From a virus: a stretch of 64,000 bases of DNA. Shown piece by piece: positions 4,809 to 51,511 of the stretch. The notes beneath the pieces are model-generated. The model was not told where the DNA came from and made no database searches. It saw only the letters and a list, made by a program, of their open reading frames with translations. Both the position numbers and the translations under genes were made by a program. The stretch's first letter is position 1. Every line of letters begins with the position of its first letter. The stretch covers positions 17,121 through 81,120 of IMG/VR virus record IMGVR_UViG_3300045988_138926; one strand, 5' to 3'.

Positions 4809-7800
4809 CAATAATATAGATAGATATAATCCTGCTGCTAAAACCACTTACGAAGATGTGGCAAGGCAAAGGAAATTAGCCGAAGAAGAGAATTACACTC
4901 CGGCTACATTACCAGAGACGACAACACCTCTGGTTCCTAATTATATGCCTGGTGAAGGTGTGTATGCCCAACCTAAATTTCCGGATTACGCATCAAGGAT
5001 AGCTGCTGCCGAATACGAAGAACCGTATATAGCCAAGGAGATAAGCAACAGCTACTCGGAGGCACTGGCTCGTAACAGCTACAGGGGGGCTACACCTGCC
5101 CCGCCGCCTCTTAATCCCTATGGACCGAAGGTAAGTATCCGTGAAAGTCATCAGATGGGTAATGATGGGGTATGGCGTACAAAATATCCCAACTATATTC
5201 CGGGTATAAACAATGAGGATTATTATGCCAGAAGACAGAGCGGATGGAGTAAGTTTTGGAATGGTGTAGGCAAATTCGCTTTAAAGTCCGCATTGTACGG
5301 TGCGCAAGGAGTTGTGTCATTGCCTGACAAACTTATCAATATGGCATCTGAGGGAAGTTACAAAGCTGCGTTAAACACTAACATGGATAAGTTTGTAGGT
5401 GATCTTGACCAGCAAATAGACATGCTTCTTCCCCATTATTACAAGAAAGAGGTAGAAGATTATAATTTTGGTCAGAAGCTTTTTAAGGATACCGGTAATT
5501 TCTTGTGGAATGACGTCCTTGGTAATGGTATGTCTTTTACCGTAGGAGCCATGATATCAGCGTACATGACCGGAGGACTTGGAGTTGGATCATTGGGTAA
5601 TATAGGCGCTAAATTAGGTGGAAGAATCGGAGCTAAGTTAGCAGCAAGGCAAGCTGCCAATAGGGGCATAGGAAGCCTTAAAAGCGTGTTTAACGACTAT
5701 GTAAGAAAAGGAGTTGCTACCGGAAGAAATGTAGGGGAGGCGGCTAAGACCATGACGTTGTTGGCTACCAGTGCCGGATTCGAGTCATCGGTTGAAGCAA
5801 ATTCTTTTATGAAGCAATCTGAGTCTGATTTCAAGGATTATTATCGTAAGATTTATGGTCGTGATCCCAATGCAGAGGAAATGGCTGTTTTTCGTAATTC
5901 TAATGCTGATGTAGGTAGTGCTATATTTGCCGCCAATATGGGTATCATAGGATTATCTAACTGGCTTCTTTTTGGTAAGTATATAGGGTTAGGAGGCAAG
6001 GCTATACCAGGGTTGGAAAAGAGGCTCAACAAGCATTTATTTGGATTAGGGACGGAAGTTGCTAAGCCGGGAGAGATGGCTATTAAAATAACCAATCCCA
6101 ATATAGGACAGAAGATAGCAGGCAATGTTTTCAATATCATGAAAAGACCGGTATCTGAAGGCTTATGGGAAGAAGGATCTCAAGGTGCTGTTCAGAATAC
6201 GGCTGAGGAATATGTTAAGTCAAGATATGATAATGTCGCCATGAACGGAGCCGTTGATGTTCTTGATGCTATTTCTGAAGGATTTAAAAAGCAATATACG
6301 TCTAAAGAAGGATGGACTGAAATAGGAATCGGTGCTATTATCGGTTCTTTGTTTGGTATGAGAGAAGGCTTCTTTGGGGTGAAAGAGTATAGTAATAGTC
6401 AGATCTTGCTGGAAAGGCAAGTGAATGAATATAACAAAGCATCTTCTAATCTTAACACGGCGGCTTTGAATACGTTGAAAAAATCAATGAGTTTAGGGCC
6501 TCAAGTTCGTTCCGATGCCCAGTCTATGACTGGTAAGGAGCTTGATGATGCTATGTTTGAAAAGATGTCTATTGACAACCAAATGGGAACCTTAGAGGAT
6601 TCGGCTGAAAATTTCCGGCAGATGATTGATATGATGCCTATTTCGGAAATAGCCGAAGCTAATGGAATGTCTTTAGAAGAGGCAAAGAAATACAAGGATT
6701 CTATTATTGATAATTATAACAATCGTCTTTCGGATTTCAGATCTGCCCAGAGTTTTGCCGAAGATCTTATAGGTGATGACTCTAAGATTGAATTTAGAAA
6801 ATACGTGGCTCGTAATGCCTTCCTTGGTCTTCAATCAGAATCAAGAATGAAAGACATAGCTTCTGTCATAGAAACGCTTTCAGGACAGCCTCGCGTGGCA
6901 GATGCGCTAAGTACGTTCTCCCGGCTGTCGGACAGAGCAAGGGAGCGGGCGATGGCTATCCGTGGCATACGGTCAAGGATAGAAGAACTTGAATCCGAAA
7001 TAGAAGATCTTGCTACCCGCCCTCGTAACGTAGAAGGGAAAGATCCACAAGCTGAATCCATACAACGAAAAACCAAAGAATTGGAAAGCCTTAGAACCAA
7101 TTATAATAATTCGTTGTCTGAGTTATCAACGTTAATAGGAAAAGAGTTTTCGATAGAAGAGCTGGTAAGTAAAACCGAATCTGTTTTATCTTCTCCTCTT
7201 TCTCCCATAAGTTCACAAGATGTGATAGAAGCCTATGATACGCTTGTGGCTTTTGATGATTATTTTAATGTAAAATCAAGACAGGAAAAGAAGTTTACAG
7301 CCAAAGACAAAGCCATGAGATCCTTGGTAAATGAATACCGAAGGAGTTTGATGGACTATAGGAATATGAATAACTTCTTGTCTAAGATGCTTGATAAAAG
7401 ATTCTTAGCTAAGGAAAATAGGGGATTTTCAAAAGCGCTGTCTTCTCTATGGTCTACTCCTTATAAAGGGGATGACAAGGTTCCTGATTTTGCAGAGCCT
7501 AATAAAGTTGGTGAATATGACACTGATGAGGTAGTAGATCAAGCTGTGTCAGAAGGTAAGATTTCGGAAGACGAAGCTTGGACTATCAAGGCTTTTATGC
7601 ATGCTCTTGATAAAGTAAGGGAAGATAGGATGAAGGAAGCAGAAGATGATATAAAAGAGTCACCGCTTACGGAGTCTGTATCGGATGAAGATTATGAGGC
7701 TGCTATGGATAATCCTATTATGGTTCCGGCCGTAAGGCAGTCTATAATTGATAAACTATATACAGGTAATGCCGATCTTCTTACTGCGAGAGAAAAAGAT

Positions 7801-10800
7801 GTGTATGATAAATACAAACAAGATTTTGATGATTATGTATCGTCTTTGGGTGACAGTCCTGTTAATCTCATAAAATCATTATCTGAGAAGGCTGATAGGC
7901 TTACAAGTCCGAGATCTGTGTATGAGGATAATAAAGCTATTATTGATATGGCTAAATCCAATTTAGAACCAGATCAAAGGAAGGAACTTGATGATGCTAT
8001 TTCTTCGTATGTTGATATAATGAACAGACGGGATAAAGGGGAGAAGGTTGACGAAGATAAGCTTGCCGATTCTGTATTTACCATAGAAGATCTTGGCCAG
8101 GTTGGAAACATCACAGATCTCCTTCCTTATATCGAACAAAACAGGATTATTGATAAAGGTCGTATTTCCGAATCTACGTTAAGTAATTTTGGGGAGGATG
8201 ATACCAATATAGATTCTCTTGTAAATGAGTTAGATGAATCCGATAATACGCCTGGAGCTAACATAGATAGTGCCCAAAATCCAGAGACGTTGATGGTTAG
8301 AAGAATATCCAACGATGGCAACGAAAGGTATGAAATTGCGGGTCTTAGAGCCGATAAATTTATATCTTCTATAAAATCATTGGTTCCTATTCAAATAAGC
8401 TCTGAAACGAACGCTAATGGTACTAAAAGGTATTCTCTTAACATAGGTGGAGAAACGGCTACTATAATTGAACTGCCTTATCATGCGAGATGGTCTATAG
8501 ACAAAGAATCGGCTCGTGTTCTTAACCGTTACACAGACGTGTCTATTCAGGACGTGGGTAATTCCTATTCTTTGGTTTATAAGCGTCTTGATTCAGATGA
8601 ATTGGTTCCGTACAGAACGGGTGTCGGATTCGGAGAGAATGAGGTAGATAAAATAGATCAGGAAGCATTATCTTCTTTGAAAAAAGGAGATAAGGTTAAT
8701 CTCGAAATAGATGTAAATGATACTTATAATCAGTCTCTTTTTGCCGAATACAATGATGCTGTTCAGTCCGGCGATAAAAAAAGAATAGAATCTGCTGAGA
8801 ATAAACTGGTGTCCAATATGGTTATCAAGGTCATGAGTGGGAACAGATTCGTTTCTGTTGTAAAAGCTGATACAGGAGGCATAGATGGTATAAGTAAAAT
8901 AAGAAGAACGGCTTTTAACAAGTGGAAGAAGGACGCCGGCCGGTCGGCTACCATCGGCGTCGGCACGCATGTTGTTGCCCAGACCCTTCCCGGAAGACCG
9001 GTGTTTAACATGAAGGTGAACGGTCAAGGATATGGCCAGATAGAAAATCTCCCTATTACCGAAAAAGGTGCTGAAAAAGTATCTGATGTTGGATATGTAT
9101 TAAATGGCAAAGTCGTGCTTAAGAACGGATCTAAATACACAGGCTTCCCATTTGCTTATTCTATATTAAATGACAAGGGGAATAATTACAAAAATGTAAG
9201 AGTTCCGGTAGTCGTCATCAAAGGTAAAAACGGTCTTAATTATCTTTTCCCAGTTAGCCTACGTTCTGTAGAATCAGAGGAAGGGCAGAAATGGATGTCT
9301 TTTATAGATATGCTGCTTGAATCTGGTGATTCTGAATTGCTACAGATGGGTCAAGATGACATACAAGATCTTAATGCGTATCTAACCAAGTTAGGTCTTG
9401 ATCCGGCTTCGTATCAAGTATCGTATTTGAATCCTATTTCAGGGCTTAGAAAAGCTCGTGAGGCTATAGAAAAATTATCTACGGTTCCTGATGTTGTTAA
9501 GTGGGTAGAAGATGAAAGCAGGAATGTGAAAGACATTGTGACGTCTGAAGTAGAATCTGGAATAGATTTCGAAGGTGAGATGTTTGTCGCTCCTAAGATC
9601 AGGATTCAGTTTGGCAAATCATCTTCCAGACCTAAATCGCTTATAGAGGATGATCTTCCTTTCTCTGATGAGGGTAAGACCGTTACTTCTAAGGTAGAAG
9701 ATGTGGAAGTTTATGAAGAGGAAATGCCAGAGGAAGGGGCTGTCCGGGAGACTCAGCCGGCGCCATTAGCTCAGCCGGCTCCTGCGGCACAAGCTGCACA
9801 GTCTTTACCTGGCAAGAAGCGTACCTCCAGGAAAAACTTCTCTCTTATGTTAAACGAAATAGAATCTCATATAGAAAAAGAAGGATTGCTGTCTTATGCT
9901 AATATTTTTGATTTTATAGCAAGAAAGATTGTAGGAGGTGATTTGAGGTTTCTTCGTGAGAGAGGTAATCCTAAAAGTCTTAAGGAGGAAATGGGATTAG
10001 AACCTAAAGGAACAGTAGGTGATAAAATATCCACTCCTTCCAGTAAAGGTGGTAAGACCTTAGAAGAATACGTTTCTTGGCTTCGTTCTCAAACAGATCA
10101 GGTGGTGGTTGATTATGTTGGTCCAAGATCTGACGAACAAATTATATCAGAGTTGAAAAACTTTTTGAAATATATTAATTTTGTTCCAAGCAAGGCTTTG
10201 AATTATTCTCTTAGAGTCAATGGCATGGATGCCCTAAAAGAATATGGCACAAAAGAGGAAGTAGAAAAAATGGAATCTGACATCAATAGTTTGGTTTCTG
10301 AAGTTTTGCCTACGGTAGATAATCAAACTGTAGAAGATGTTTCTACTGCAATAGAATCAAATAACCTGCCTGCCATATGGAGACCTATGGAAAGCCTTGA
10401 TATGACAAACGAGGAAAAAATAGAGTTTTTGAATAACGTAGCAGATTTCCTTAGCGGCATTCCAGAGTATGATGCTGTTGTGGAGTCTATAGAGTCAGAA
10501 TCAGATAATATTTTAAATGATGGAAAAGAAGGAAGTGCAGAAGGCGGTGCAGTACGCGCTGAGGAAGATGGCGATAAAAAGGGAGATGGAAAAAGAGAAG
10601 GACAACCCAGAGATGATGGCAAAGCTGAGGGAGATGTCTATTTACCTGGATCTGAAGAAGGAAGAGTAGATAACTATAAGAAGAACGGAGATAAGTTCTC
10701 TGATATTGCCGAAGTTACTTTATGGTTACTTAGAAGGGCTGCCGGCATAACCTCTATCCCGGAAGGAGAAGAGGTTTATGTAGAGGGGGATGAAGTTAAT

Positions 10801-35847: not shown

Positions 35848-36867
35848 TCATCGCTTTATCTTTTTAGACGGATCCCAATCTGAAGAGAAAGGGCATTCGT
35901 TTTTGTTATGTAATCCAAAGTCACAATAATAACACAGTGCCGACGGGCAGGGTAGCTTGTTTTGCGAAACAGGCTGGCTTAGGGTGGCACGCCGCTTGCT
36001 ATACCTGGCTCCTTCTGCTCCCTGGATGTACGCTTGAAATGATTTTACACTATTATCTTCAAAATCATACATTTTAGATAAAGTGTCATTTAGCATCTCT
36101 ATAGATTTTGTTTTACGTTCCTCATCCACTTTAACCTTTTGGTATTGTCTGGTCCTGGTAAAGAAATAGATGTTCATATCTGGCAGAACTCCACCATATT
36201 TTCTATAGATGTAAAACGAATATATAGGATGCTGTAAATTCGTTTCCAACTTCTTAGAATCAAAAACCTTATTACCTGATTTCCAATCTATGACATAATG
36301 GTGAACTACGTTCTTGCTCTTTATAGCCAGATGAAGATCTACCGATCCTACTATGTACACATGTGTATGAACGTCACCATTTATATCAACAGGCTTAGGA
36401 AGACGATACGGCAGCACAAAATCTTCTTCGACTCCAATTATAGCGCCGTGTCTGATAAGTTTCTCACAGGGATTAAGATCACTATCAGCTATCATAAACC
36501 TATTGCCATCTTTTTTAAACAGATCCACAATCCAAGCAAGAAGTTCCCCAGATTGCTTCATGGCCATCATCATATTTTCTGGTGATTGCCAAGGTATGTC
36601 TTCTTGGTAAGCATAGTAACTTATCGCTTCCCCCAGGTCTTTGCCAGAAGGCTGTCTTCCGTTCTTAAAGAAGTATTCCAGTGTCTTATGGATAACCGTA
36701 CCATAGGATGTAGCTTCTTGTTTTTCCGTAGACCTTTTGCCCTCCACGTAAGTTTTATACCATTTCATTGGACAAGTAAGAAACGTATCTATCTGGGAAT
36801 AAGATATGGCAAGACGTTTCACACCATTAAACTCCTTATATAGCAAATGCGTTTCCGGGACCATCAT
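35848..36867 (-). CDS. Cas4/RecB-like PD-(D/E)xK exonuclease with Fe-S cysteine cluster (putative)
   Basis: N-terminal Cys (FLTCPMKWY). Core D...VIDWKSG. C-terminal CPSALCYYCDFGLHNKNECPF (C-x5-C-x2-C-x9-C). This is the Cas4/AddB nuclease architecture. Confidence 0.45.
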   Translation of the reverse strand: MMVPETHLLYKEFNGVKRLAISYSQIDTFLTCPMKWYKTYVEGKRSTEKQEATSYGTVIHKTLEYFFKNGRQPSGKDLGEAISYYAYQEDIPWQSPENMMMAMKQSGELLAWIVDLFKKDGNRFMIADSDLNPCEKLIRHGAIIGVEEDFVLPYRLPKPVDINGDVHTHVYIVGSVDLHLAIKSKNVVHHYVIDWKSGNKVFDSKKLETNLQHPIYSFYIYRKYGGVLPDMNIYFFTRTRQYQKVKVDEERKTKSIEMLNDTLSKMYDFEDNSVKSFQAYIQGAEGARYSKRRATLSQPVSQNKLPCPSALCYYCDFGLHNKNECPFSSDWDPSKKIKR

Positions 36868-37211
36868 AAGTCATTGTCTTTAAATCCTTCTGGGTAATAT
36901 ACGACATACTTCTTACCGTCTTCTGGTGTCATGGCAAACTGCATGTAGTTATTACGATTACGATGCTTGCCATCCAATCCTCGTTTCCAATACAGGATAC
37001 CGTCTATATCCACATAAGATCGGCCGCGGTCGGCTCTAACCACGTCCGTGTGTAGCAGATACCCGTCGGAAGACACAATCCACACTTTATCCCCTTTGCT
37101 TAAATAAGATATTCTTTTTCTTACAACAACCCTTTTCTTATTATCCAATACAAATTCCTCGTCAGTCATACTCTTCATCCTCCTCTTCTTCTGTTTCAAA
37201 ATCAATTCCAT
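36864..37211 (-). CDS. hypothetical protein, 115 aa, immediately downstream (minus-strand sense) of the orphan omega-RNA-like element
   Basis: ORF. No IscB similarity. Confidence 0.5.
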   Translation of the reverse strand: MELILKQKKRRMKSMTDEEFVLDNKKRVVVRKRISYLSKGDKVWIVSSDGYLLHTDVVRADRGRSYVDIDGILYWKRGLDGKHRNRNNYMQFAMTPEDGKKYVVYYPEGFKDNDL

Positions 37212-37311
37212 ATCCCATATTCTATTAAATATATTTAAAGTTATTCGTATGTTTTAATACATCCCCTCGGAGACCTTTCGGTCTCCTTGGTAGATGTAAA
37301 TCCCGTTAGGG

Positions 37312-37523
37312 ATAAGTCAGGATTTCTCCTGTAAGTACCCATCGCCAATGTTATAAGAGGTTTTATATAATGGCAACACTGTTTCGTCAAATACACTACT
37401 CCTGTTTAATCACCATCCTTAGAGCTACGGACTTGGGTAAACATCCGTAGGTAACTATCTATTCTCAAATAACGTAGCCTTCGTTTCAAGGCTTAGGCTA
37501 ATAACCCGATCTCTGAAAGAGAT
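37312..37523 (-). ncRNA. orphan IscB-type omega-RNA (HEARO)-like structured RNA, paralog of the element upstream of iscB
   Basis: About 75 percent identical over roughly 210 nt to 49176-49387 in the same orientation. Differences are compensatory in at least three stems: cagga/tcctg vs cagag/ctctg, agcctt/aaggct vs agtgtt/aacact, and atctct/agagat vs aatagc/gctatt. Strand is inferred from the iscB copy. Confidence 0.55.
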
Positions 37524-37750
37524 GTATTAAACTTTTATAATAGAATTATATTAGTTTAATACTATTTGGGGTTATAACACTGATCATAATGCTTGGTCAG
37601 TTCTTCTGGTTCTAAATCTTGTCCAAAATCCATGTTAAAAATATCGTAATTAGTAAAGCACTAAAAATCACTATTCCTGCTGGCATGAAATCTATAAATG
37701 CTGCTTTTGCTTCTTCAATTAGGCCCAAGTGTAACCTTGGGCCATTGTAT

Positions 37751-39451
37751 TTATTTTTTGTCATCTCCTTTTAATTTCTTTAAAGTATCTGCAATCGGAA
37801 GCTGATCGATGACTCCCAATGCCGGAGCGACGGTCTTGACAACATTGTTAAGGAAATTACCGGTACTGTTCTGACCGCCGTCAAATACCGTGATATTTCC
37901 GAGGTTAATGTGCTCAAATGCTTTAACCTGTTCTCCAGCAATTTCTTTCCACTGATTAACCATCTTGTACTGGATGGCGATCTGGGGATTGGATTCTGCT
38001 GCTTCCACCATAGCCTTAAATCCGTCGGCTTCTGCCATTAACGACTTTTTCTTACCTTCGGCTTCTGCCTCCAGCTTCATCTGAATAGCTTTTGCCTCCG
38101 CCTCAGCTTTTGCCAAATGTGCTGCTGCCTCAGCCTCAGCCCGGCGTTTGATCTTCTCGGCCTCGGCATCAGCTTGTAAGATAGCCTCTTCCTTCTGGGT
38201 TTCAGCCGGCACAATCTTTTCAGCCTTAAGCGCAGCCTGAACTTTCTTAGCCTTAGCTTCTTCCACTTCTTTATCAGCAAGCTCTTTTGCCGTTTTTACA
38301 GCCGCTTCCGATTTAACTTTTTCTTCTCCGGCCTTCTTTTCTGATTGAGCTTTGATAATCTGTAGTTCTGATACTGACACAGCAACCTCCTTCTGGGCAT
38401 TGTTGTATCCTATAGACGCATTTTTCTCAGCCTCAGCCTTCTTAATCTGAGCTTCAGAGTCTTGTATTGCTATAGCTGCTTCCTTGTCAGCTTCAGCCTT
38501 ATTCTTTCCGACTTCTTCCATCCTTTCAGCCTCGGCTTTATTTACTTCAAGTTCTGCCTTAGATCTTACAATCGCCGATTCCTTGTCGGTTAAAGTTTTT
38601 GCGATAACCGCAGCCCTGTCTCTATCTGCTTGAGCTACGCCGATCTGTTTCTCTTTATCGGTTAAAGCCAAGGCTATTTCTTTTTCTTTCTTCGTTTCAG
38701 CTACTATCGTTTCCTTTTCTTTTTCAGTACAAGCAATTTGAATCTCTTGTTCTTTTTTGGTATTAGCCACAGCCGTTTCTTTCTCCTTCTGCTGTACAGC
38801 AATCTTAATAGCACCCAGCTTCTCCTGCTCTTCGATATTAGCTTGTGCTTCGTTCAGAGCCCTACTTTCAGCCTCCTTACCAAGGTTCATAATATAACCT
38901 GCTTCGTCTCTGATGTCACTGATGTTGATGTTCAGGAGGTAAAGACCTAACTTGTTAAGCTCGTTATCAATGTTCTTTCTTGCCTTATCCAAAAACTCAT
39001 CCCTGTCAGAATTAAGTTTTTCGATTGTCATTTCAGCAATAATCAAACGCATCTGACCGTAAACGATGTCCGTAATAAGATTTTCAGTAGATTCGGTATC
39101 CATCCCCAAAAGTCTTTCTGCCGCATTTTGCATGATTTCGGGATTTGTACTGATAGCTACTGTAATGGTCGTAGGTACATCTACTCTAATATTCTGAGAT
39201 GACAAAGCACCGGTAAGCTTGCAATCTATTTGCATAGGCTCCATTGACAAAACATCATAGCTTTGAATAATAGGCAAGACGAATGCCGCTCCACCATGAT
39301 ATAATTTCGCCGACTTCTTTTCCCCACCTGTCTTACCGTAAACGACCAAGACCTGATTAGGCTTACATCTACGATACCTTGATAAGACTCCGATGATTGT
39401 CAAAATAATCACTACAGCTAAGATAGCTGACACGTACATGATTGTTGTCAT
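37751..39451 (-). CDS. flotillin-like SPFH/band-7 protein (FloT/YuaG-like), 566 aa
   Basis: N-terminal TM anchor YVSAILAVVIILTIIGVL, then an SPFH domain, then a long Ala/Glu/Lys-rich coiled coil (EAEKNASIGYNNAQKE...KAEAEAKAIQMKLEAEAEGKK) typical of flotillins. Confidence 0.8.
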   Translation of the reverse strand: MTTIMYVSAILAVVIILTIIGVLSRYRRCKPNQVLVVYGKTGGEKKSAKLYHGGAAFVLPIIQSYDVLSMEPMQIDCKLTGALSSQNIRVDVPTTITVAISTNPEIMQNAAERLLGMDTESTENLITDIVYGQMRLIIAEMTIEKLNSDRDEFLDKARKNIDNELNKLGLYLLNINISDIRDEAGYIMNLGKEAESRALNEAQANIEEQEKLGAIKIAVQQKEKETAVANTKKEQEIQIACTEKEKETIVAETKKEKEIALALTDKEKQIGVAQADRDRAAVIAKTLTDKESAIVRSKAELEVNKAEAERMEEVGKNKAEADKEAAIAIQDSEAQIKKAEAEKNASIGYNNAQKEVAVSVSELQIIKAQSEKKAGEEKVKSEAAVKTAKELADKEVEEAKAKKVQAALKAEKIVPAETQKEEAILQADAEAEKIKRRAEAEAAAHLAKAEAEAKAIQMKLEAEAEGKKKSLMAEADGFKAMVEAAESNPQIAIQYKMVNQWKEIAGEQVKAFEHINLGNITVFDGGQNSTGNFLNNVVKTVAPALGVIDQLPIADTLKKLKGDDKK

Positions 39452-39482
39452 AACTTTTAAAATTTAATTGTTGATAAAAAAA

Positions 39483-39971
39483 TTAGATACTTAATTCTCC
39501 TTCTTCATATTTTATATTCGCCTTGTCGCCGTTTTTGTAGGTTTTTCCAGACAAGCATCTTACTCTCATTTGCTCTTGTCTTCCATTTTTCGAAATATTT
39601 ACCATATAATGATTCTTCCCTGATCTAAATACTATCTCCACTTCTCTTCCGTTTAAATCTTCCGGACATTCGTACACCATTTCTTGCTTTAACTTAAGAA
39701 GTAACTTATATACGTAAAACAAAATGATAAAGAAAAACGACCCTATCACAACCCCTACTAAATGGGAACCCGAAAAGTACGTGGCCCAGCTATATCCAAG
39801 AATAAAATGCGTTATACCCTTGAATGATATGATGTCCGACAAAGACATGCTTAAATCAGAAGCACTGTCAATATCCGTATCCAGATCAGATCCTAATATC
39901 GACAACAAAAACTGTATAACAAAAGCAAATGATGCTATTAAAGCCATGCATAAAATTATATCACTTCCCAT
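39483..39971 (-). CDS. NfeD-like membrane protein (YuaF-like flotillin partner), 162 aa
   Basis: Multi-TM N-terminus followed by a soluble beta-rich C-terminal domain. Lies immediately upstream of the flotillin gene, as in nfeD-floT operons. Confidence 0.55.
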   Translation of the reverse strand: MGSDIILCMALIASFAFVIQFLLSILGSDLDTDIDSASDLSMSLSDIISFKGITHFILGYSWATYFSGSHLVGVVIGSFFFIILFYVYKLLLKLKQEMVYECPEDLNGREVEIVFRSGKNHYMVNISKNGRQEQMRVRCLSGKTYKNGDKANIKYEEGELSI

Positions 39972-46648: not shown

Positions 46649-46730
46649 CGCAATTTCTCAATTAATTCCTCTTTAACATAATACAACACAGTTACAGTCT
46701 CATCAATATCTGTGGCTGCTTTCTCAAATA

Positions 46731-47252
46731 CTATTTGGGGTTATATCTGTCAATTATTTCAATAATCAACCTACCTCTTTCTTTAATCATTCCCCTGCTT
46801 TCCATATCCAGTACCTTCTTTACCGCATATTTCCACACAAAAGGAAATTCTGTTTCAAGTTTATCAAATTCTATCCGGTCAAGATACATGTCGAATACCG
46901 TATGCTCCGATTCATGTAGAAAAACTATATTATCTCTGCAAGTGGCAACCGACTTATATATCCTTTTCGGAAGTATGTGACATACGTTACATACTGTAGG
47001 AAAATGAATAGCCCTACCAGTCATAGACATCCGAATACTATTTAGCTCTTCCAGCATAAGACGAAAAAACCCGGATAAATCCGGGCTCTCTAACTTTTTC
47101 TTCTTGCTGCTGTTTTTAATGGATGTAATTCTGTTTTTCTTCTTCGGAGTCAACTCTTTGCTCCTGCAAGCCTGGCATAAGCCATGACTTCTTATCATCA
47201 CTTTTCGTCCGCATCGTTCGCAGACGTATAGCTTCTTTTCCTTGCTTTCCAT
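46731..47252 (-). CDS. zinc-ribbon protein, 173 aa
   Basis: CERCGRK...CQAC at the N-terminus. Confidence 0.5.
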   Translation of the reverse strand: MESKEKKLYVCERCGRKVMIRSHGLCQACRSKELTPKKKNRITSIKNSSKKKKLESPDLSGFFRLMLEELNSIRMSMTGRAIHFPTVCNVCHILPKRIYKSVATCRDNIVFLHESEHTVFDMYLDRIEFDKLETEFPFVWKYAVKKVLDMESRGMIKERGRLIIEIIDRYNPK

Positions 47253-47437: not shown

Positions 47438-47924
47438 TCTTCTTCTCGCCTAATTTTTCAGCTCCCTTCTGAAGATCGTATTTGAATACGTCAATGATCT
47501 TCGTTTCAGCAATAGCTTCGCAATTCCAGTCTCCTAACGTGCCCTGCATACCTTTAGTTAACACAGCTTCGGCATCTTTAGGATTGCCGGCTTGGACATA
47601 CATATAGCATGGCGTTTTCTTTTCTTTACCTTTCTTTTCATCCAGTGTAATGTAATTCACCTTGCACTTATACCAGTACTCAGCTTCTCCGTTGAAAAAG
47701 ATTTCTGACACTTTAATAGGGTTAATTTTTACAACCTCGAAAGAATTGTACAAATCCTTAAAGATCTCCAACGATCTTGATTCTGCCTCTGTATAAGACA
47801 AGGCATCTACCAAATACTTTTCAGTTACTTTCTTTTTTTTGCCGTTCTCGATATTATCAATCTCGGCTTTTACCGTAATTTCAAACCAACGATTCATGTC
47901 TATATTTTTATTCAAATTAATCAA
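47427..47924 (-). CDS. hypothetical protein, 165 aa (TTG start in track; the ATG at codon 10 is a more likely start)
   Basis: ORF. Confidence 0.5.
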   Translation of the reverse strand: MINLNKNIDMNRWFEITVKAEIDNIENGKKKKVTEKYLVDALSYTEAESRSLEIFKDLYNSFEVVKINPIKVSEIFFNGEAEYWYKCKVNYITLDEKKGKEKKTPCYMYVQAGNPKDAEAVLTKGMQGTLGDWNCEAIAETKIIDVFKYDLQKGAEKLGEKKSEE

Positions 47925-49147
47925 TCCATTTCCTTTTGTACCATAAAGCGTTTACACCTTGATAATTTCAATTTCTTGTATGTAATATCTCTTTGGTTTT
48001 TACCATCAATATCTCGAATATTAAAACTACCGGTTTTACGCCTTGCAAATATAAAGTAATAACTGTTTTCAAACATAACCCTATCAAACAATCGGAAACC
48101 AAAAACTTCAAAAGGAGATTGATTTGGTCTTTTTATCCCTCCTTTTGGAATCTTTTGTTTATGGATCTGACGATTATGTCTTCTTACTAATCTTACTTTA
48201 TAATAATAACCTAACCTTATAGCATCAAAGTTTTTAGAAATAACAAATGCATCGAAAACATGAGATTTTTCAATACCATGTTTAATCCTATTGTATTTTG
48301 TAACATAACCGAAAGTCATAGAAATGTTGTCGTATTTAGATTTTAGTTCTTCATACAATCTCCATTTCATTATTCCCATTACGGCTGCGTCGCGAAGCGA
48401 CTTGCCTCTTCTGATCTTTAAATCTATATTACCTTTATGGTATTCTTTATGACAAGTTTCACATAAGGTAATAAGATTAGATGGGGAATCTCCACCTGTC
48501 TTTCGTGATTCAATATGATGAACATTCAATACTGGGTCTTTTGACTTTCCCTTACAATGCTGGCATTTATGTCCATCTCTTGCTAAAACATATTCCCTAA
48601 CGTTCCAAAATCCAAGTTGATCACCCTCCTGATATTCTTTACCTGATATATTAGGATTGTTAATCTTTTGAGTATCAAATTGAGCTACTTCGATAACAAT
48701 ACGAGATATTGGTAATATAGAACATACATTGTCAATAACACGAATATGGGCGTCTACTTTGTATTTCACCGAAGGTGCTACCCATCCCGGACGCTTACTT
48801 TTTATTCTATTATCAAAACGAGGTTTTCTATATCTCAATCTATTTCGTCTTGATCTTCGTAGCTCCCTTCTGGTAGACAAAAGATCTACAATATCATTTC
48901 TAAGGATTACTTCACTACTGTAAAGTTCTTTGCTTTTCGTTGTAGCCGATAAACCAACATGTTTAGTACCAGCATCAACGCCTAACACAATTTCTTGTTT
49001 GTAATCAGATGTTACGTACATTAATTTGATGGTAAACGGACATAGGTTTACAACGACTGCCTTTTTGTCTTTAAGCAGTCTCCTAACCTTACCATGCCTT
49101 GTTGTGGGCATCATAGGTTTACCATTTATGTCTTGTACGTACACCAT
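47921..49147 (-). CDS. iscB: IscB, RNA-guided HNH+RuvC nuclease of the IS200/IS605 (OMEGA) family, 408 aa, catalytic residues intact
   Basis: PLMP-like N-terminus (KPMMPTTRHGKVRRLL). RuvC-I IVLGVDAGTKHVGLS. Arg-rich bridge helix RRELRRSRRNRLRYRKPRF. RuvC-II IVIEVAQFD. HNH CQHCKGK...NVHHIESRKTGGDSPSNLITLCETCH. RuvC-III HVFDAFVIS. Confidence 0.85.
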   Translation of the reverse strand: MVYVQDINGKPMMPTTRHGKVRRLLKDKKAVVVNLCPFTIKLMYVTSDYKQEIVLGVDAGTKHVGLSATTKSKELYSSEVILRNDIVDLLSTRRELRRSRRNRLRYRKPRFDNRIKSKRPGWVAPSVKYKVDAHIRVIDNVCSILPISRIVIEVAQFDTQKINNPNISGKEYQEGDQLGFWNVREYVLARDGHKCQHCKGKSKDPVLNVHHIESRKTGGDSPSNLITLCETCHKEYHKGNIDLKIRRGKSLRDAAVMGIMKWRLYEELKSKYDNISMTFGYVTKYNRIKHGIEKSHVFDAFVISKNFDAIRLGYYYKVRLVRRHNRQIHKQKIPKGGIKRPNQSPFEVFGFRLFDRVMFENSYYFIFARRKTGSFNIRDIDGKNQRDITYKKLKLSRCKRFMVQKEMD

Positions 49148-49175
49148 ATCTACAAACGTTTTTAATGTTTATTCA

Positions 49176-49387
49176 ACATAAGTCAGAGTGAAACTCTGTT
49201 AGTACCCATCGCCAATGTTATTTAAGGTTTTTTTGTAAGCAACACTGTTCCTGAATACCAGAACTGTTTAATCACTTACCTTAGAGCTACAGACTTGGGC
49301 AAACATCCGCAAGTAACTATCTATTCTTAAATAACGTAGTGTTTGTTTCAACACTTAGGCTAATAATCGGAATAGCTTTTGGCTATT
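49176..49387 (-). ncRNA. omega-RNA (HEARO-type) scaffold upstream of iscB
   Basis: Lies 29 nt upstream of the iscB start. Hairpin-rich (cagag-tgaaa-ctctg; agtgtt-tgtttc-aacact; aatagc-ttttg-gctatt). Has a covarying paralog at 37312-37523. The guide segment is expected just beyond 49387. Confidence 0.6.
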
Positions 49388-49600
49388 ATGCATAATACAA
49401 TACAAATTGGTTATGATTTGTATGAGTTATGTATTATTCTCGATTATTCGTAGCTACGAAATACTTACACCCCTCTAAGTGCGTCAGGGCTTCAATTATA
49501 GCATTCTTTATCTCTTTTTCTTCCATTATGTTTGTTTTTTTTGGACAAAGATATGTCTTTTGATAATAAAAAAGATTCAAAATGATTTAATTTAGCTTAA

Positions 49601-50044
49601 TTACTGCTCTTTTGATTCGTCCGGTATAGGCATGTCAAACTTTTTTCTGATAAACGACTCTGTTTCTTCATTGAATGGATAGGCTTCCTTAATAAAATTC
49701 ATAGCTACTTCCATGTCACCGTCTGCTATATCTTTATACCTTTCAAAGATACCAACCAGGTCATTGTTGTATGAACGTTCTTGTTTTATGTTGTACACGT
49801 ATTTCAATACCCTGTCTTTAATTTCATTGGCTTTTTTCACAGTATCATTGAAGGAATTTGCACTTTCCAATTCTGGATCTTTGTTTTCCTTGTTTACCTT
49901 ATCAAACTCTTCCTCGCTATATCCTGCTTCTCCTGTAATGGCTGGGCAAACACTTTCCTCTATGATCCAAAATTGTTCATACGAGCCTGTCAGAAACCTT
50001 GATTCTATTTTAAATGCATTATATTTAACAAGCAAATTAGCCAC
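49601..50044 (-). CDS. hypothetical ORF, 147 aa, between iscB and tnpB; may overlap the TnpB right-end/omega-RNA region
   Basis: ORF with no HuH transposase motifs. Confidence 0.35.
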   Translation of the reverse strand: MANLLVKYNAFKIESRFLTGSYEQFWIIEESVCPAITGEAGYSEEEFDKVNKENKDPELESANSFNDTVKKANEIKDRVLKYVYNIKQERSYNNDLVGIFERYKDIADGDMEVAMNFIKEAYPFNEETESFIRKKFDMPIPDESKEQ

Positions 50045-51260
50045 CTCAGTTGCACCTTCTACGGTTCTAAAACCGATGCCGATATCTTTTAACTTGACAC
50101 ACTCCCATCGCTAAAGCAAATGGGATTCTTGGATACAAACGCAAGAAACCCCGATATTAATATCGCTGGAATTACTCTTGCTCTCCAATTCGGAAATGCC
50201 CTTCCGAAGTATATTACGGGCTGCAAGAACATCACGGTCGTTAACCGCGCCGCACGACGGGCATACCCACGTGCGGTCGCGTAACGACAGTCCTTTATTA
50301 ATGCAGCCACATTCACAAGTTTTGGAAGAAGGATACCATTTGTCAATCTTGTGTATCGTTACTCCATACTTTGAAGCAACGTACGTAAGTTTATCAATAA
50401 AAGAAGAATGACTAAGATCGGAAACTTTCTTTCCCCACAAACGTCTCATTCCTTCAATGTTTAGATCTTCAATAAAAATATAATCATATTGTTTACACAA
50501 CTGGTGTGCTAATCCCCATTGAAAGTCTGATCGAAGATCGTTTATTTTACGATACGCTTGTTGGAGTTCAAACAGTCTCCTTCTTCTATTGTTGGATCCT
50601 TTCTTTGCATTAGAAAGCTGTTTGTTTAGTTTTCTAATCTTGTTTTGATATTGTTTGAAGAATAGAGGAGAATCAATTTTGTTACCATCGCTTTTAGTTA
50701 GATAAGTTTTCAGCCCAAAATCCAACCCTATAGATGCACCATCATGTGTCTTTCTATAAGAGTTTATAAGATTATGATCTGTAATAATTATCAGGCTATA
50801 TCGATAGCATGTTTCTCTAACTATTCTAATTTGTTTAACATTACCTTCGTAGACTCTACTGTATGAAAATCTAAATCGTTTCTTTCCTTTATTGATTGTT
50901 AGACAATTACCATTCAGGGTAAACCCACCTTGTTTGAATACAAAAGAATTGAATTTCTCCGGTGATTTAAACTTAGGAGGTCGTTTAGCCAACTTCTTAA
51001 AGAAACGATTATAAGATTCATCAAGACGTTCAAGTATTTCTTGCACTGTTTGGGAATGAAGAAGATTTCTTTTTATCCTTTTAGCAAAATGCTTCTTCAT
51101 CTTACCAATTGATATATATTTTCCAAACAGTTTGTAGTATCTACGTTGTAGAGCTAACGCATGATTCCATACAAAACAACATTCTCGAAGCATTTTGTCC
51201 AGATACTTCGTTTTCTTGGAATGATAGATGTTGTATTTGTATGAAATCATTTTTTTATTT
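49950..51260 (-). mobile_element. IS200/605-family TnpB-only element; right end and omega-RNA expected within about 49950-50250; boundaries approximate
   Basis: Inferred from TnpB, whose omega-RNA derives from the ORF 3' end plus right end. No TnpA ORF nearby. Confidence 0.4.
50111..51250 (-). CDS. tnpB: TnpB, RNA-guided RuvC nuclease of the IS200/IS605 family, 379 aa
   Basis: RuvC-I ASIGLDFGLKTY. RuvC-II IFIEDLNIEGM. Zinc finger CECGC...CPSCG. RuvC-III NDRDVLAARNI. The 3' part is locally GC-rich relative to the rest of the window. Confidence 0.85.
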   Translation of the reverse strand: MISYKYNIYHSKKTKYLDKMLRECCFVWNHALALQRRYYKLFGKYISIGKMKKHFAKRIKRNLLHSQTVQEILERLDESYNRFFKKLAKRPPKFKSPEKFNSFVFKQGGFTLNGNCLTINKGKKRFRFSYSRVYEGNVKQIRIVRETCYRYSLIIITDHNLINSYRKTHDGASIGLDFGLKTYLTKSDGNKIDSPLFFKQYQNKIRKLNKQLSNAKKGSNNRRRRLFELQQAYRKINDLRSDFQWGLAHQLCKQYDYIFIEDLNIEGMRRLWGKKVSDLSHSSFIDKLTYVASKYGVTIHKIDKWYPSSKTCECGCINKGLSLRDRTWVCPSCGAVNDRDVLAARNILRKGISELESKSNSSDINIGVSCVCIQESHLL

Positions 51261-51325
51261 GTAATTTTGATTCAAAATTAATCAAACCAATTCATCCACC
51301 TTCTAAAGTATGGTGGTTTTGTTGG

Positions 51326-51511
51326 TTAAATAATCATAAATACTGGAACTCCCGTTCTTGGATACACGACTTCTTTTTCGTTCTTTATATTCCAGTTTTT
51401 AGCTTCAATTGGAATACCTTTACCAGCAAGCTCTTTGTCTATATACAGATATATCTCTTTGCATGTCAATGACACAATCTCATCTCTGCTTAAATCAAAA
51501 ACTGTTTTCAT
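51326..51511 (-). CDS. small hypothetical ORF, 61 aa
   Basis: ORF in the co-oriented array. Confidence 0.3.
   Translation of the reverse strand: MKTVFDLSRDEIVSLTCKEIYLYIDKELAGKGIPIEAKNWNIKNEKEVVYPRTGVPVFMII

What the first reader, a model, noticed from the sequence alone, without database searches (positions are those of the whole stretch)
37312..37523. Orphan second copy of the IscB omega-RNA scaffold, maintained by compensatory substitutions, 12 kb from iscB
A roughly 210-nt sequence in the non-coding gap between ORF 36864-37211 and the flotillin gene is a diverged paralog of the RNA encoded immediately upstream of iscB (49176-49387). Identity is about 75 percent and the orientation is the same.

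The differences are not random. At least three hairpins change both strands of the stem so that pairing is preserved: cagga/tcctg vs cagag/ctctg; agcctt-cgtttc-aaggct vs agtgtt-tgtttc-aacact; atctct-gaa-agagat vs aatagc-ttttg-gctatt. Meanwhile single-stranded stretches such as gtacccatcgccaatgtta, ctatctattctyaaataacgtag and ttaggctaataa are identical. Structure-level selection on a copy with no nuclease gene beside it suggests a functional stand-alone omega-RNA. It could retarget the phage-encoded IscB in trans with a different guide, or it could be a noncoding regulatory element derived from the IS.

The ORF sitting where iscB would be (36864-37211, 115 aa) has no IscB similarity.
Basis: partly seen in the sequence, partly recalled or inferred. 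Interest (0 to 1): 0.85.

Follow-up and report, generated by a model that had tools for sequence, protein, structure and literature searches.

The report
Guide-RNA-only mini transposon in a phage
The "orphan" RNA is the intact guide-RNA module of a 364-bp, protein-less miniature copy of the IscB transposon that has jumped into at least ten places in related gut phages; this is a known kind of element (guide-RNA-bearing PATE), and here an uninterrupted target allele is available for testing it.

Summary
Window 37331-37575 (minus strand) scores 102.7 bits against Rfam HEARO, the IscB omega-RNA family (cut-off 83). The copy upstream of iscB scores 110.4.

The interpretation needs correcting. The orphan is not a paralog kept in place by selection. 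It is part of a discrete 364-bp element, 37213-37576. The 97%-identical phage csAssE-Sib lacks exactly this stretch. Full-length copies (91-98% identical) occur in about 45 viral contigs at 10 or more insertion sites. Eleven of twelve flank types begin TATG, usually the start codon of the next gene.

The element keeps the omega-RNA end, a conserved tail hairpin and the other transposon end, but has no iscB. Its omega-RNA is closer to those of other IscB lineages than to the resident one. Variation among copies is block-wise and matches variants seen in IscB-linked RNAs, so the compensatory differences were largely inherited or imported by recombination.

The guide is the flanking 16 nt, 37577-37592, not the sequence beyond 37523. 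It matches the csAssE-Sib empty site 16/16, followed by TATG.

Most likely it is a mobile, guide-only element that uses IscB in trans for homing or retention. That function is inferred, not shown. Novelty: a new member of a known kind.

The parts
37213..37576 (-). Whole 364-bp miniature, iscB-less ISC (IS200/IS605-family) element. In RNA sense it runs 5'-TATAACCCCAAAT ... AATAGAATATGGGA-3'.
   Evidence: Absent from csAssE-Sib, where the flanks abut with zero gap. The same unit is present full-length at 10 or more other sites in viral contigs.
37331..37575 (-). Omega-RNA scaffold (HEARO). It includes P1 (AUAACCC/GGGUUAU), two 5' hairpins and the conserved core.
   Evidence: Rfam RF02033, 102.7 bits against a cut-off of 83, model positions 1-211. 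Covariation.
37300..37331 (-). Two 3' hairpins beyond the Rfam model: CAGGA-GAAA-UCCUG (37318-37331) and AUCCC-UAAC-GGGAU (37300-37313). The second replaces the AUGUU-GAAUA-AACAU hairpin of iscB-linked copies.
   Evidence: Alignments A3 and A4. Helix 12 is 99% paired with changes on both sides. Helices 12 and 13 are 98-99% paired within the mini lineage.
37259..37297 (-). Extended G+C-rich hairpin in the tail: outer stem ACAUC/GAUGU, inner stem GGAGACC-GAAA-GGUCUCC. Function unknown. Candidates are RNA 3'-end formation or stabilisation, or a transposase-binding hairpin.
   Evidence: 99-100% paired in 38 mini copies. The diverged mini elements in L002 and L013 have a hairpin at the same place with different sequence: ACAUUCC/GGAAUGU and CAUACUCCG/CGGAGUAUG (read by eye, not folded).
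37213..37258 (-). A+T-rich terminal segment, the other transposon end (the left end in the transposase's frame).
   Evidence: Ends exactly at the empty-site junction. Shares ATTTAATAGAA and overall layout with the 3' ends of L016/L083-type iscB elements. Homology is short, so this is only partly established.
37577..37592 (-). Predicted 16-nt guide, GCAUUAUGAUCAGUGU. It is phage DNA flanking the element, transcribed by read-in from the flotillin and 50-aa genes upstream.
   Evidence: The element boundary coincides with the 5' end of the scaffold. The guide matches the csAssE-Sib empty allele 16/16. It has no second match with 2 or fewer mismatches in the window. The 16-nt length is assumed from characterised IscB systems.
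37209..37212 (-). TATG target and TAM motif abutting the element. Its ATG (37209-37211) is the start codon of the 115-aa gene.
   Evidence: Eleven of twelve distinct mini flank types begin TATG; one begins TACG. iscB elements of the window's type are followed by CATG or TATG at 7 or more sites.
47899..49447 (-). Full iscB element, the candidate trans partner. Omega-RNA 49148-49447, iscB ORF 47921-49147 (408 aa), guide 49448-49463 (UAUUUCGUAGCUACGA). It is followed by CATG (47895-47898), the start codon of the DUF4494 gene.
   Evidence: HEARO 110.4 bits. Pfam RRXRR 204 bits plus HNH. OgeuIscB structures 7utn/7xht, E=2e-43. Ends were set by comparing copies at different insertion sites and by the point where homology to csAssE-Sib resumes, 49448.
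46727..46745 (-). Vestige of a second mini copy: its first 19 nt, TATAACCCCAAATAGTATT, at 'site D'.
   Evidence: Exact match to mini nt 1-19, next to the site-D 5' flank. Loci L061 and L032 carry the full element here. The window lacks 436 nt, with the 10-nt microhomology AAATAGTATT at the junction.

Best explanation
SHOWN. Window 37213-37576 is one insertion of a 364-bp non-autonomous, protein-less derivative of the IscB insertion sequences (ISC, IS200/IS605 superfamily) that populate this group of roughly 80-170-kb human-gut phages. It amounts to an iscB element with the gene removed.

It keeps:
- the omega-RNA end (a complete HEARO scaffold plus its two 3' hairpins);
- a conserved G+C-rich hairpin;
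- the opposite A+T-rich terminus.

It sits immediately 5' of TATG, here the start codon of the 115-aa gene, with no duplication required to explain the junction. It is polymorphic: present here and absent in csAssE-Sib. The same unit occurs at 10 or more other TATG sites in related phages. This window also holds a 19-nt vestige of a second copy.

INFERRED.
1. As in all IscB elements, the guide is not inside the element. It is the approximately 16 nt of flanking DNA (37577-37592) joined to the scaffold by read-in transcription from the co-oriented upstream genes.
2. The resulting RNA, loaded in trans onto an IscB such as the resident 408-aa enzyme 11.7 kb away (whose own elements abut CATG or TATG), would recognise the uninterrupted allele GCATTATGATCAGTGT|TATG.
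3. That allele arises after excision, or is carried by a co-infecting phage such as csAssE-Sib.
4. Cleavage followed by recombinational repair from the element-bearing genome would restore or spread the element (homing or retention).
5. First insertion at new TATG sites presumably needs a Y1 transposase (TnpA) supplied in trans.

The compensatory differences from the iscB-linked copy reflect descent from a different omega-RNA lineage, plus block exchange among omega-RNA copies. They are not evidence of in-place selection.
For: Identity:
- HEARO 102.7 bits, full model length.
- Eighteen mini copies score 89.4-117 bits. Eighteen iscB-linked copies score 88.9-110.4, so there is no sign of decay.

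Discrete element:
- csAssE-Sib (97% identical flanks) has the two flanks adjacent with zero gap.

Mobility:
- Full-length copies at 91-98% identity lie at flank types A, B, C, D, E, F, G, H, I and J plus recombinant flanks.
- The 3' flank is TATG in 11 of 12 types.
- Several contigs carry 2 copies.

Structure:
- Family-wide, 83.7% of cells are paired against 76.3% in shuffles and 35-44% in slid controls. 47 pairs change on both sides.
- Within the iscB-less lineage alone, 91.9% are paired and 19 pairs change on both sides. Helices 6 and 9 are 100% paired across 2-3 haplotypes.
- An older mini lineage (L002, 79% identical, same tail layout, also directly 5' of TATGGA) still scores 89.4 bits.

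Guide and target logic:
- The scaffold's 5' end is the element boundary.
- The empty allele carries a 16/16 protospacer followed by TATG.
- Upstream genes are co-oriented, as Meers et al. report for IscB elements (10.1101/2023.03.14.532601).

Partner:
- iscB appears intact: RRXRR and HNH domains, and it aligns with OgeuIscB through the RuvC-I and HNH motifs.
- Its family's flanks are CATG or TATG.
- At least 11 of about 45 mini-bearing contigs also hold an iscB element among the loci captured. This is a lower bound.

Transposase:
- A Y1 TnpA (Pfam Y1_Tnp, 132.6 bits) exists in 8 related viral contigs. One of them, contig 113423, also carries a mini copy and an iscB element.

Precedent:
- Standalone omega-RNAs function with IscB (Hirano 2022, PMC9581776, citing Altae-Tran 2021).
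- PATEs 'often encode omega-RNAs' that must be acted on in trans (Meers 2023).
Against: - No transcript, ribonucleoprotein or cleavage data exist. Trans use is an inference from anatomy.
- Conservation of the scaffold could reflect youth (copies are 91-98% identical) and repeated gene conversion from iscB-linked copies, rather than selection on the orphan itself.
- The tail is no more variable than the RNA part: 15 of 99 variable columns against 62 of 265.
- Some changes do break pairs. A22C in the second 5' hairpin occurs in 11 of 38 copies, and one 3' hairpin pair is broken in 2 of 38 (L122, L149).
- Compatibility of this scaffold (77-81% identical to the resident one) with the resident IscB is untested. 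Its nearest iscB-linked relatives belong to IscBs 84-85% identical to the resident enzyme.
- No TnpA was found in the window, though the test was weak. The TnpA found in relatives is linked to tnpB elements whose TAM is TTTAT, not TATG.
- Homology of the element's 3' terminus to full iscB elements is short.
Confidence: 0.75

Rival explanations
1. Inert passenger. The element is a selfish miniature transposon mobilised through its ends. The omega-RNA is retained only because the right end lies inside it, the copies are young, and it is repeatedly overwritten by gene conversion. It guides nothing.
For: - Copies are 91-98% identical.
- Variation is block-wise and matches iscB-linked haplotypes.
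- The tail is as conserved as the RNA.
- A few uncompensated stem changes exist.
- One copy in this window has already been deleted.
Against: - The whole 245-nt scaffold, far more than a transposase-binding end, is intact in every one of 38 distinct copies, with Rfam scores equal to those of iscB-linked RNAs.
- A 79%-identical mini lineage (L002) still passes the Rfam cut-off.
- A deletion that removed iscB precisely yet spared every RNA helix and the two 3' hairpins is what selection for RNA function would leave.
Confidence: 0.22
2. An intragenomic duplicate of the iscB-linked omega-RNA has diverged in place under selection for structure, giving a stand-alone RNA that retargets IscB to a new, unrelated site.
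For: - Two HEARO copies lie in one genome, with compensatory differences.
Against: - The locus is an insertion with its own two ends, absent from the sister phage.
- Identical units occur at many other sites.
- Its RNA is nearer to other IscB lineages than to the resident copy.
- The guide equals its own flank and has no other match with 2 or fewer mismatches in the window.
Confidence: 0.02
3. In-place decay. A full iscB element once sat here and lost its gene by deletion at this locus.
For: - The layout is that of an iscB element minus the ORF.
Against: - The same deletion junction and tail are found at 10 or more different insertion sites.
- The deletion therefore happened once, and the product then moved.
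Confidence: 0.02
4. Domesticated cis-regulatory module. The structured RNA or hairpin serves phage gene expression (terminator, insulator, or promoter/leader) for the gene whose ATG it abuts.
For: - It is always placed directly 5' of a start codon and co-oriented with the gene.
- The tail hairpin is conserved.
Against: - The downstream genes differ from site to site.
- The sister phage expresses the same gene without the element.
- Placement is explained by the TATG target plus survival of non-disruptive insertions.
- Promoter and terminator scans found nothing distinctive.
Confidence: 0.04

Closest known systems
Standalone (iscB-less) omega-RNA loci that work with IscB in trans (Altae-Tran et al. 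2021, as cited in Hirano et al. 2022, PMC9581776)
   Same: - A complete IscB-type omega-RNA scaffold with no adjacent nuclease gene.
- An IscB encoded elsewhere in the same genome.
   Different: - Here the host genome is a phage.
- The RNA is shown to be part of a bounded 364-bp mobile unit with a known empty site.
- Function in trans is not tested here.
- I could not read the primary paper, so detailed comparison rests on the secondary citation.
PATEs (palindrome-associated transposable elements) of the IS200/IS605 superfamily that carry omega-RNAs (Meers et al. 2023, 10.1101/2023.03.14.532601; Kapitonov et al. 2016, PMC4810608)
   Same: - Short and protein-less.
- Retains both transposon ends.
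- Multiple copies.
- Must rely on transposase and nuclease supplied in trans.
   Different: - Meers et al. discuss these PATE-borne omega-RNAs as needing TnpB in trans; the one here is IscB-type (HEARO).
- It is carried on phage genomes.
- Transposase-binding hairpins are not identified here.
ISC (IscB) transposons inserting at N|ATGA (Kapitonov et al. 2016, PMC4810608)
   Same: - Insertion immediately upstream of an ATG-containing 4-nt target, without target duplication.
- Non-autonomous.
- Ends defined by empty-site comparison.
   Different: - The target here reads TATG (YATG for the full elements), with G, A or T at the next base.
- Insertion sites coincide with gene start codons.
Transposon 'non-restorative' homing and phage homing endonucleases (review PMC13565253)
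   Same: - Predicted cleavage of an element-free allele in a co-infecting genome, followed by copying-in of the element.
   Different: - The specificity would be RNA-guided.
- It would be split between a guide-only element and a nuclease encoded 11.7 kb away.
- This is not demonstrated.

Membership tests
HEARO / IscB omega-RNA (Rfam RF02033) | Scores at or above the curated gathering score over the full covariance model | tested here: met
   102.7 bits against 83, model positions 1-211, E=5e-20.
HEARO / IscB omega-RNA (Rfam RF02033) | Helices supported by covariation in relatives | tested here: met
   93 sequences: 83.7% paired against 35-44% in slid controls, and 47 pairs changed on both sides. 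38 mini copies: 91.9% paired, 19 such pairs. The core structure was taken from the Rfam alignment, not derived from these sequences. The 5' hairpins, the two 3' hairpins and the tail hairpins were drawn by hand from the window sequence.
HEARO / IscB omega-RNA (Rfam RF02033) | Encoded directly upstream of, and co-oriented with, an iscB (HNH) ORF | tested here: not met
   The next ORF (36864-37211) has no Pfam hit and no IscB similarity. iscB lies 11.7 kb away. The feature is met for the 49-kb copy. It is typical of the family rather than required, since standalone copies are reported (PMC9581776).
HEARO / IscB omega-RNA (Rfam RF02033) | The scaffold's 5' end coincides with the transposon end, and the guide comes from flanking DNA | tested here: met
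   The empty-site junction is at 37576/37577 and the Rfam hit starts at 37575.
HEARO / IscB omega-RNA (Rfam RF02033) | Transcribed and bound by IscB; directs DNA cleavage | not testable with these tools
   No expression or biochemical data.
PATE-like non-autonomous IS200/IS605 (ISC) element | Discrete ends shown by a filled versus empty allele | tested here: met
   csAssE-Sib has zero gap between the flanks.
PATE-like non-autonomous IS200/IS605 (ISC) element | Several copies at different genomic sites | tested here: met
   10 or more flank types in about 45 viral contigs.
PATE-like non-autonomous IS200/IS605 (ISC) element | Insertion next to a short conserved target motif, without target-site duplication | tested here: met
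   TATG in 11 of 12 flank types. The junctions need no duplication. A 3-nt TAT ambiguity remains at the two ends.
PATE-like non-autonomous IS200/IS605 (ISC) element | Both ends shared with a protein-coding relative | tested here: inconclusive
   The omega-RNA end is clearly shared. The other end shares only ATTTAATAGAA and its general layout with L016/L083-type elements.
PATE-like non-autonomous IS200/IS605 (ISC) element | No protein-coding capacity | tested here: met
   The only ORF of 40 aa or more is a 51-aa GTG frame (37241-37396) that overlaps the RNA. It was not scanned against any protein family library, and I judge it to be a chance ORF.
PATE-like non-autonomous IS200/IS605 (ISC) element | Subterminal hairpins bound by a Y1 transposase; mobilised by TnpA in trans | not testable with these tools
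   Hairpins exist near both ends, but their role is unknown. No TnpA was found in the window, by a weak test using remembered query sequences. A Y1_Tnp gene (132.6 bits) occurs in 8 related contigs, linked to tnpB.

The most novel reading that the evidence does not exclude
The mini elements act as dispersed guide cassettes. Each insertion adds one more guide to a single phage-encoded IscB, so a phage carrying several of them cuts, at several loci at once, any co-infecting relative that lacks those insertions. This would drive the elements (and linked phage genes) into rivals or exclude them. It would be a natural multi-guide system with the nuclease in trans, carried on a virus, and would resemble an early step from transposon guide RNAs towards arrays of guides.
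Probability: 0.3. Interest if true: 0.65.

Novelty: new member of a known kind. Interest (0 to 1): 0.4.

Why it matters
Guide-only derivatives of IS200/IS605 elements and standalone IscB omega-RNAs have been reported, mostly from bacterial chromosomes. This locus offers a clean natural test case in phages:
- exact element boundaries;
- a sequenced sister genome that carries the predicted 16-nt protospacer plus TATG motif uninterrupted;
- an apparently intact IscB 11.7 kb away;
- dozens of related copies at other sites.

It would let one test directly whether an omega-RNA works in trans, whether such elements home between co-infecting phages, and what the TAM of this IscB group is.

It also carries a methodological caution. 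Compensatory differences between two RNA copies in one genome need not mean selection on both, when the copies belong to a recombining family of mobile elements.

Tried and rejected
- **MAFFT gap placement.** MAFFT misplaced the gap in the window/csAssE-Sib alignment. I reset the junction by eye and confirmed it by flank matching.
- **5' end of the iscB-linked RNA.** I first took the Rfam start (49414) and a 'TATAACC' at 49415 as its 5' end. I rejected this after comparing same-subfamily copies at other sites and the point where csAssE-Sib homology resumes. The true end is 49447.
- **iscB reading through the element end.** I first thought iscB read through the element end at about 47945. I rejected this once the conserved 3' terminus (...AAAATATAGA|CATG) was seen at 7 or more sites.
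- **Empty site for the iscB element.** An exact empty site could not be recovered. csAssE-Sib has 151 unrelated nt there, and the flanking gene differs.
- **Second targets for the guides.** None was found with 2 or fewer mismatches in the window.
- **More copies of the tail.** None in the window. Searching the element's 5' end found the 19-nt vestige.
- **TnpA in the window.** Nothing found, but the queries were TnpA sequences written from memory, so the test is weak.
- **Host identification.** The conserved 20-mer gave a single hit in 185,579 species genomes, a 'Vibrio olivae' contig. It has the same element and flank as the viral loci and is probably phage or contaminant.
- **Promoter and terminator scan.** The sigma-70 and intrinsic-terminator scan was uninformative.
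- **Literature.** Nothing found on csAssE-Sib, or on phage-borne IscB mini elements in the one search that looked for them. Altae-Tran 2021 is not held.
- **Two apparent partial tails.** In L065 and L128 these were only loci cut at their ends.

Full report
**1. Observation**

The gap between the 115-aa ORF (36864-37211, minus strand) and the flotillin operon holds a full-length match to Rfam HEARO (RF02033), the family now known as the IscB omega-RNA. The match is 37575..37331 on the minus strand, 102.7 bits against a gathering score of 83. The RNA upstream of iscB (47921-49147, minus strand, 408 aa) scores 110.4 bits. These are the only two Rfam hits in the window.

The three hairpins it listed are real. 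In 93 distinct relatives two of them stay 99% paired while changing on both strands, and the third changes on both strands at all 6 pairs but is 74% paired on this alignment. IscB carries RRXRR and HNH domains and matches solved IscB structures at E=2e-43. The 115-aa ORF is unrelated to IscB.

**2. What it is part of**

The nearest sequenced phage, csAssE-Sib (OR575929.1, human gut, 151 kb), is 97% identical across 36.0-39.5 kb but lacks about 360 nt. Its two flanks abut exactly...GCATTATGATCAGTGT|TATGGAATTG.... The window therefore carries an insertion, 37213-37576 (364 nt). A 3-nt TAT ambiguity remains at the two junctions.

On the RNA strand the insert begins TATAACCCC..., one base before the Rfam hit starts. 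This matches the rule that the IscB scaffold begins at the transposon end and the guide lies outside it (Meers et al., 10.1101/2023.03.14.532601).

**3. It is mobile**

A 22-mer specific to the tail returned 35 loci.

Most 20-mer loci have the RNA followed directly by an iscB 70-99% identical to the window's. About 45 contigs instead carry the same 364-bp unit, full length, at 91-98% identity and with no iscB.

These copies lie in at least ten different flanking contexts. Eleven of twelve flank types start TATG on the 3' side (TATGGA, TATGAA, TATGAG, TATGAT, TATGGC, TATGTT); one starts TACG. The 5' flanks share nothing. In most cases the ATG of the motif looks like the start codon of the next gene.

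Several contigs hold two copies. The window itself holds the first 19 nt of a second copy at 46727-46745. The rest of that copy was lost through a deletion at a 10-nt microhomology.

Because the same deletion architecture appears at many sites, in-place decay of an iscB locus is excluded.

**4. Anatomy**

In RNA sense the element contains, in order:
- P1 (AUAACCC/GGGUUAU) enclosing two hairpins;
- the conserved HEARO core;
- a terminal hairpin, CAGGA/UCCUG;
- a small hairpin, AUCCC/GGGAU, which takes the place of the AUGUU/AACAU hairpin found before the iscB start codon in full elements;
- a longer G+C-rich hairpin (37259-37297);
- an A+T-rich end, ...ATTTAATAGAATATGGGA.

Two diverged mini elements have the same layout: L002 (79% identical) and L013 (78%). 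By eye, their tail hairpins differ in sequence but still pair, and L002 again sits directly 5' of TATGGA.

The far end resembles the 3' ends of L016/L083-type iscB elements only over a short stretch. Derivation of that end is therefore only partly established.

**5. The full iscB element**

Comparison of same-subfamily copies at different sites puts its ends at 49447 (ATAATCGAG...; P1 is AAUAAUCG/CGAUUAUU) and 47899 (...AAAATATAGA). It is followed by CATG, the start codon of the DUF4494 gene. Sister copies are followed by CATG or TATG.

The Rfam alignment mis-registers the 5' end because this subfamily has a longer 5' hairpin. The full elements and the mini elements therefore share a YATG-type target.

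**6. The compensatory substitutions**

The structure is well supported family-wide. It is also supported within the iscB-less lineage alone: 91.9% of cells paired, 19 pairs changed on both sides, and helices 6 and 9 100% paired across two or three haplotypes.

These haplotypes are the same ones seen in iscB-linked RNAs, and they move as blocks:
- Copies at the same site A differ by the whole UACGGA/UCCGUA versus AAGGAA/UUUCUU hairpin.
- Site-C copies carry the GUGUU/AACAC variant of the resident iscB RNA.
- In L007, L018, L126, L128 and L015, the central roughly 160 nt of the mini RNA has been replaced by the iscB-linked type.
- L015 comes from a phage whose iscB element is 99.6% identical to the window's. 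Its replaced region is 95.9% identical to the window's iscB RNA.

The window's mini RNA is itself closer to the RNAs of other IscB lineages than to its neighbour. It is about 89% identical to L016/L082 and 97.8% to L083 over the core, against 77-81% to the resident copy.

They do not by themselves show selection on the orphan.

What does argue for retained function:
- Every copy has an intact scaffold.
- Rfam scores are indistinguishable from iscB-linked RNAs: 89-117 against 89-110 bits.
- An older mini lineage still passes the cut-off.

Against this:
- The copies are young.
- The tail is as conserved as the RNA.
- A few stem changes are uncompensated.

**7. Mechanism**

This section is inferred. 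Read-in transcription from the co-oriented flotillin and 50-aa genes would give 5'-...GCAUUAUGAUCAGUGU joined to the scaffold. With IscB supplied in trans, the target is the uninterrupted allele plus TATG. That allele is exactly what csAssE-Sib carries.

Cleavage and recombinational repair would reinstate or spread the element. [quoted passage not shown]

The guides have no other match with 2 or fewer mismatches in the window. Retargeting to an unrelated locus is therefore unsupported.

New insertions need a Y1 transposase:
- None was found in the window, though the test was weak.
- A canonical TnpA (HUH motif and catalytic Tyr; Pfam Y1_Tnp, 132.6 bits) lies next to tnpB in 8 related viral contigs.
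- One of these contigs also holds a mini copy and an iscB element.
- Its tnpB relatives use the TAM TTTAT, so whether it can move the ISC or mini elements is unknown.

**8. Comparison with known systems**

Standalone omega-RNAs that work with IscB are cited in PMC9581776. PATEs that encode omega-RNAs and depend on nucleases in trans are noted by Meers et al. ISC elements inserting at N|ATGA are described in PMC4810608.

The present element fits these descriptions. It passes every HEARO test except adjacency to iscB, and every PATE test I could run. Transposase binding and the homology of the far end remain open.

It is a new member of a known kind. Its distinguishing features are its phage setting, its start-codon-adjacent TATG sites, and the visible exchange of RNA modules between copies.

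**9. Verdict**

- Observation: confirmed.
- Interpretation: partly supported.
- Interest: moderate (0.4).
- Main value: a well-defined natural system for testing trans-acting omega-RNAs and RNA-guided homing between phages.

Noticed in passing
window 46727-46745 (minus strand): A 19-nt vestige (TATAACCCCAAATAGTATT) of a second mini element at 'site D'. The rest of the element and about 82 nt downstream were deleted at the 10-nt microhomology AAATAGTATT. The NinG-like ORF 46731-47252 now ends in remnant-encoded residues, ...YNPK*.
   Followed up: yes
window 50094-51334 (minus strand): A tnpA-less tnpB element (TnpB 379 aa; Pfam OrfB_IS605 and Cas12f1-like TNB) is inserted exactly at csAssE-Sib position L003:4246, inside a gene that is an intact 222-aa CDS there. 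On the minus strand the flanks read TTTAT|element|GTTAAAAGAT, so the predicted TAM is TTTAT. The window's gene is split into ORFs 51326-51511 and 49601-50044. No group I intron was detected at Rfam thresholds.
   Followed up: partly
L151-L157 and L058 (IMG/VR contigs, including 3300045988_113423 and _131853): Autonomous IS605-type relatives of the window's tnpB element (76-84% identical) carry a divergently oriented 132-aa Y1 transposase (Pfam Y1_Tnp, 132.6 bits). Some alleles have HIH changed to YIR or YIH in the HUH motif, and so may be inactive.
   Followed up: partly
L134/L138, L077 and L065, compared with window 37577-39607: Some mini copies have recombinant flanks. In L134 and L138 the 5' flank maps to window 39607, an internal TATG of the 162-aa gene, while the 3' flank is site A; the 2.4 kb that includes the flotillin gene is missing. 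L077 has its 5' flank at 39478. L065 joins the site-F 5' flank to the site-E 3' flank. This suggests deletions or rearrangements by recombination between mini copies, or adjacent deletions.
   Followed up: partly
L015:8-300, L007, L018, L126, L128, compared with window 49198-49400: In these site-A copies the central roughly 160 nt of the mini omega-RNA has been replaced by the iscB-linked type. L015 is 95.9% identical there to the window's iscB RNA and comes from a phage whose iscB element is 99.6% identical to the window's. This looks like gene conversion between the two RNA genes within a genome.
   Followed up: partly
window 47895-47898 and 37209-37212; related loci: Both the full iscB elements and the mini elements of this family end immediately before CATG or TATG, which is usually the start codon of the next gene. 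The element therefore replaces the gene's native 5' leader.
   Followed up: partly
L150 (NZ_JBHMEP010000019.1, 'Vibrio olivae' CECT 8064, 20-kb contig): This is the only hit to the conserved 20-mer in 185,579 species genomes. It carries an iscB element with the same flank as viral loci L038 and L040, and its IscB is 80% identical to the window's. It is probably a phage or contaminant contig rather than Vibrio chromosome.
   Followed up: partly
L143:723-3209 and 7735-8934: Two mini copies lie 2.1 kb apart at different TATG sites, and an iscB element lies within the same 12.5-kb stretch of one viral contig.
   Followed up: no
window 47899-47937 compared with L003:3411-3449: The last roughly 39 nt of the iscB element still align weakly with csAssE-Sib sequence at the end of an 86-aa gene; AAAAGGAAA is shared. 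That gene is truncated in the window: 151 nt of csAssE-Sib (L003:3450-3600) have no counterpart in the window, while the gene's N-terminal part survives as ORF 49434-49580. The cause is unresolved. It may be chance similarity in A+T-rich DNA, or a more complex history at this insertion site.
   Followed up: no
window 37751-39451 (minus strand): The phage encodes a 566-aa flotillin / SPFH (Band 7) protein. It is absent from some relatives (L077, L134, L138), so it behaves as an accessory module.
   Followed up: no
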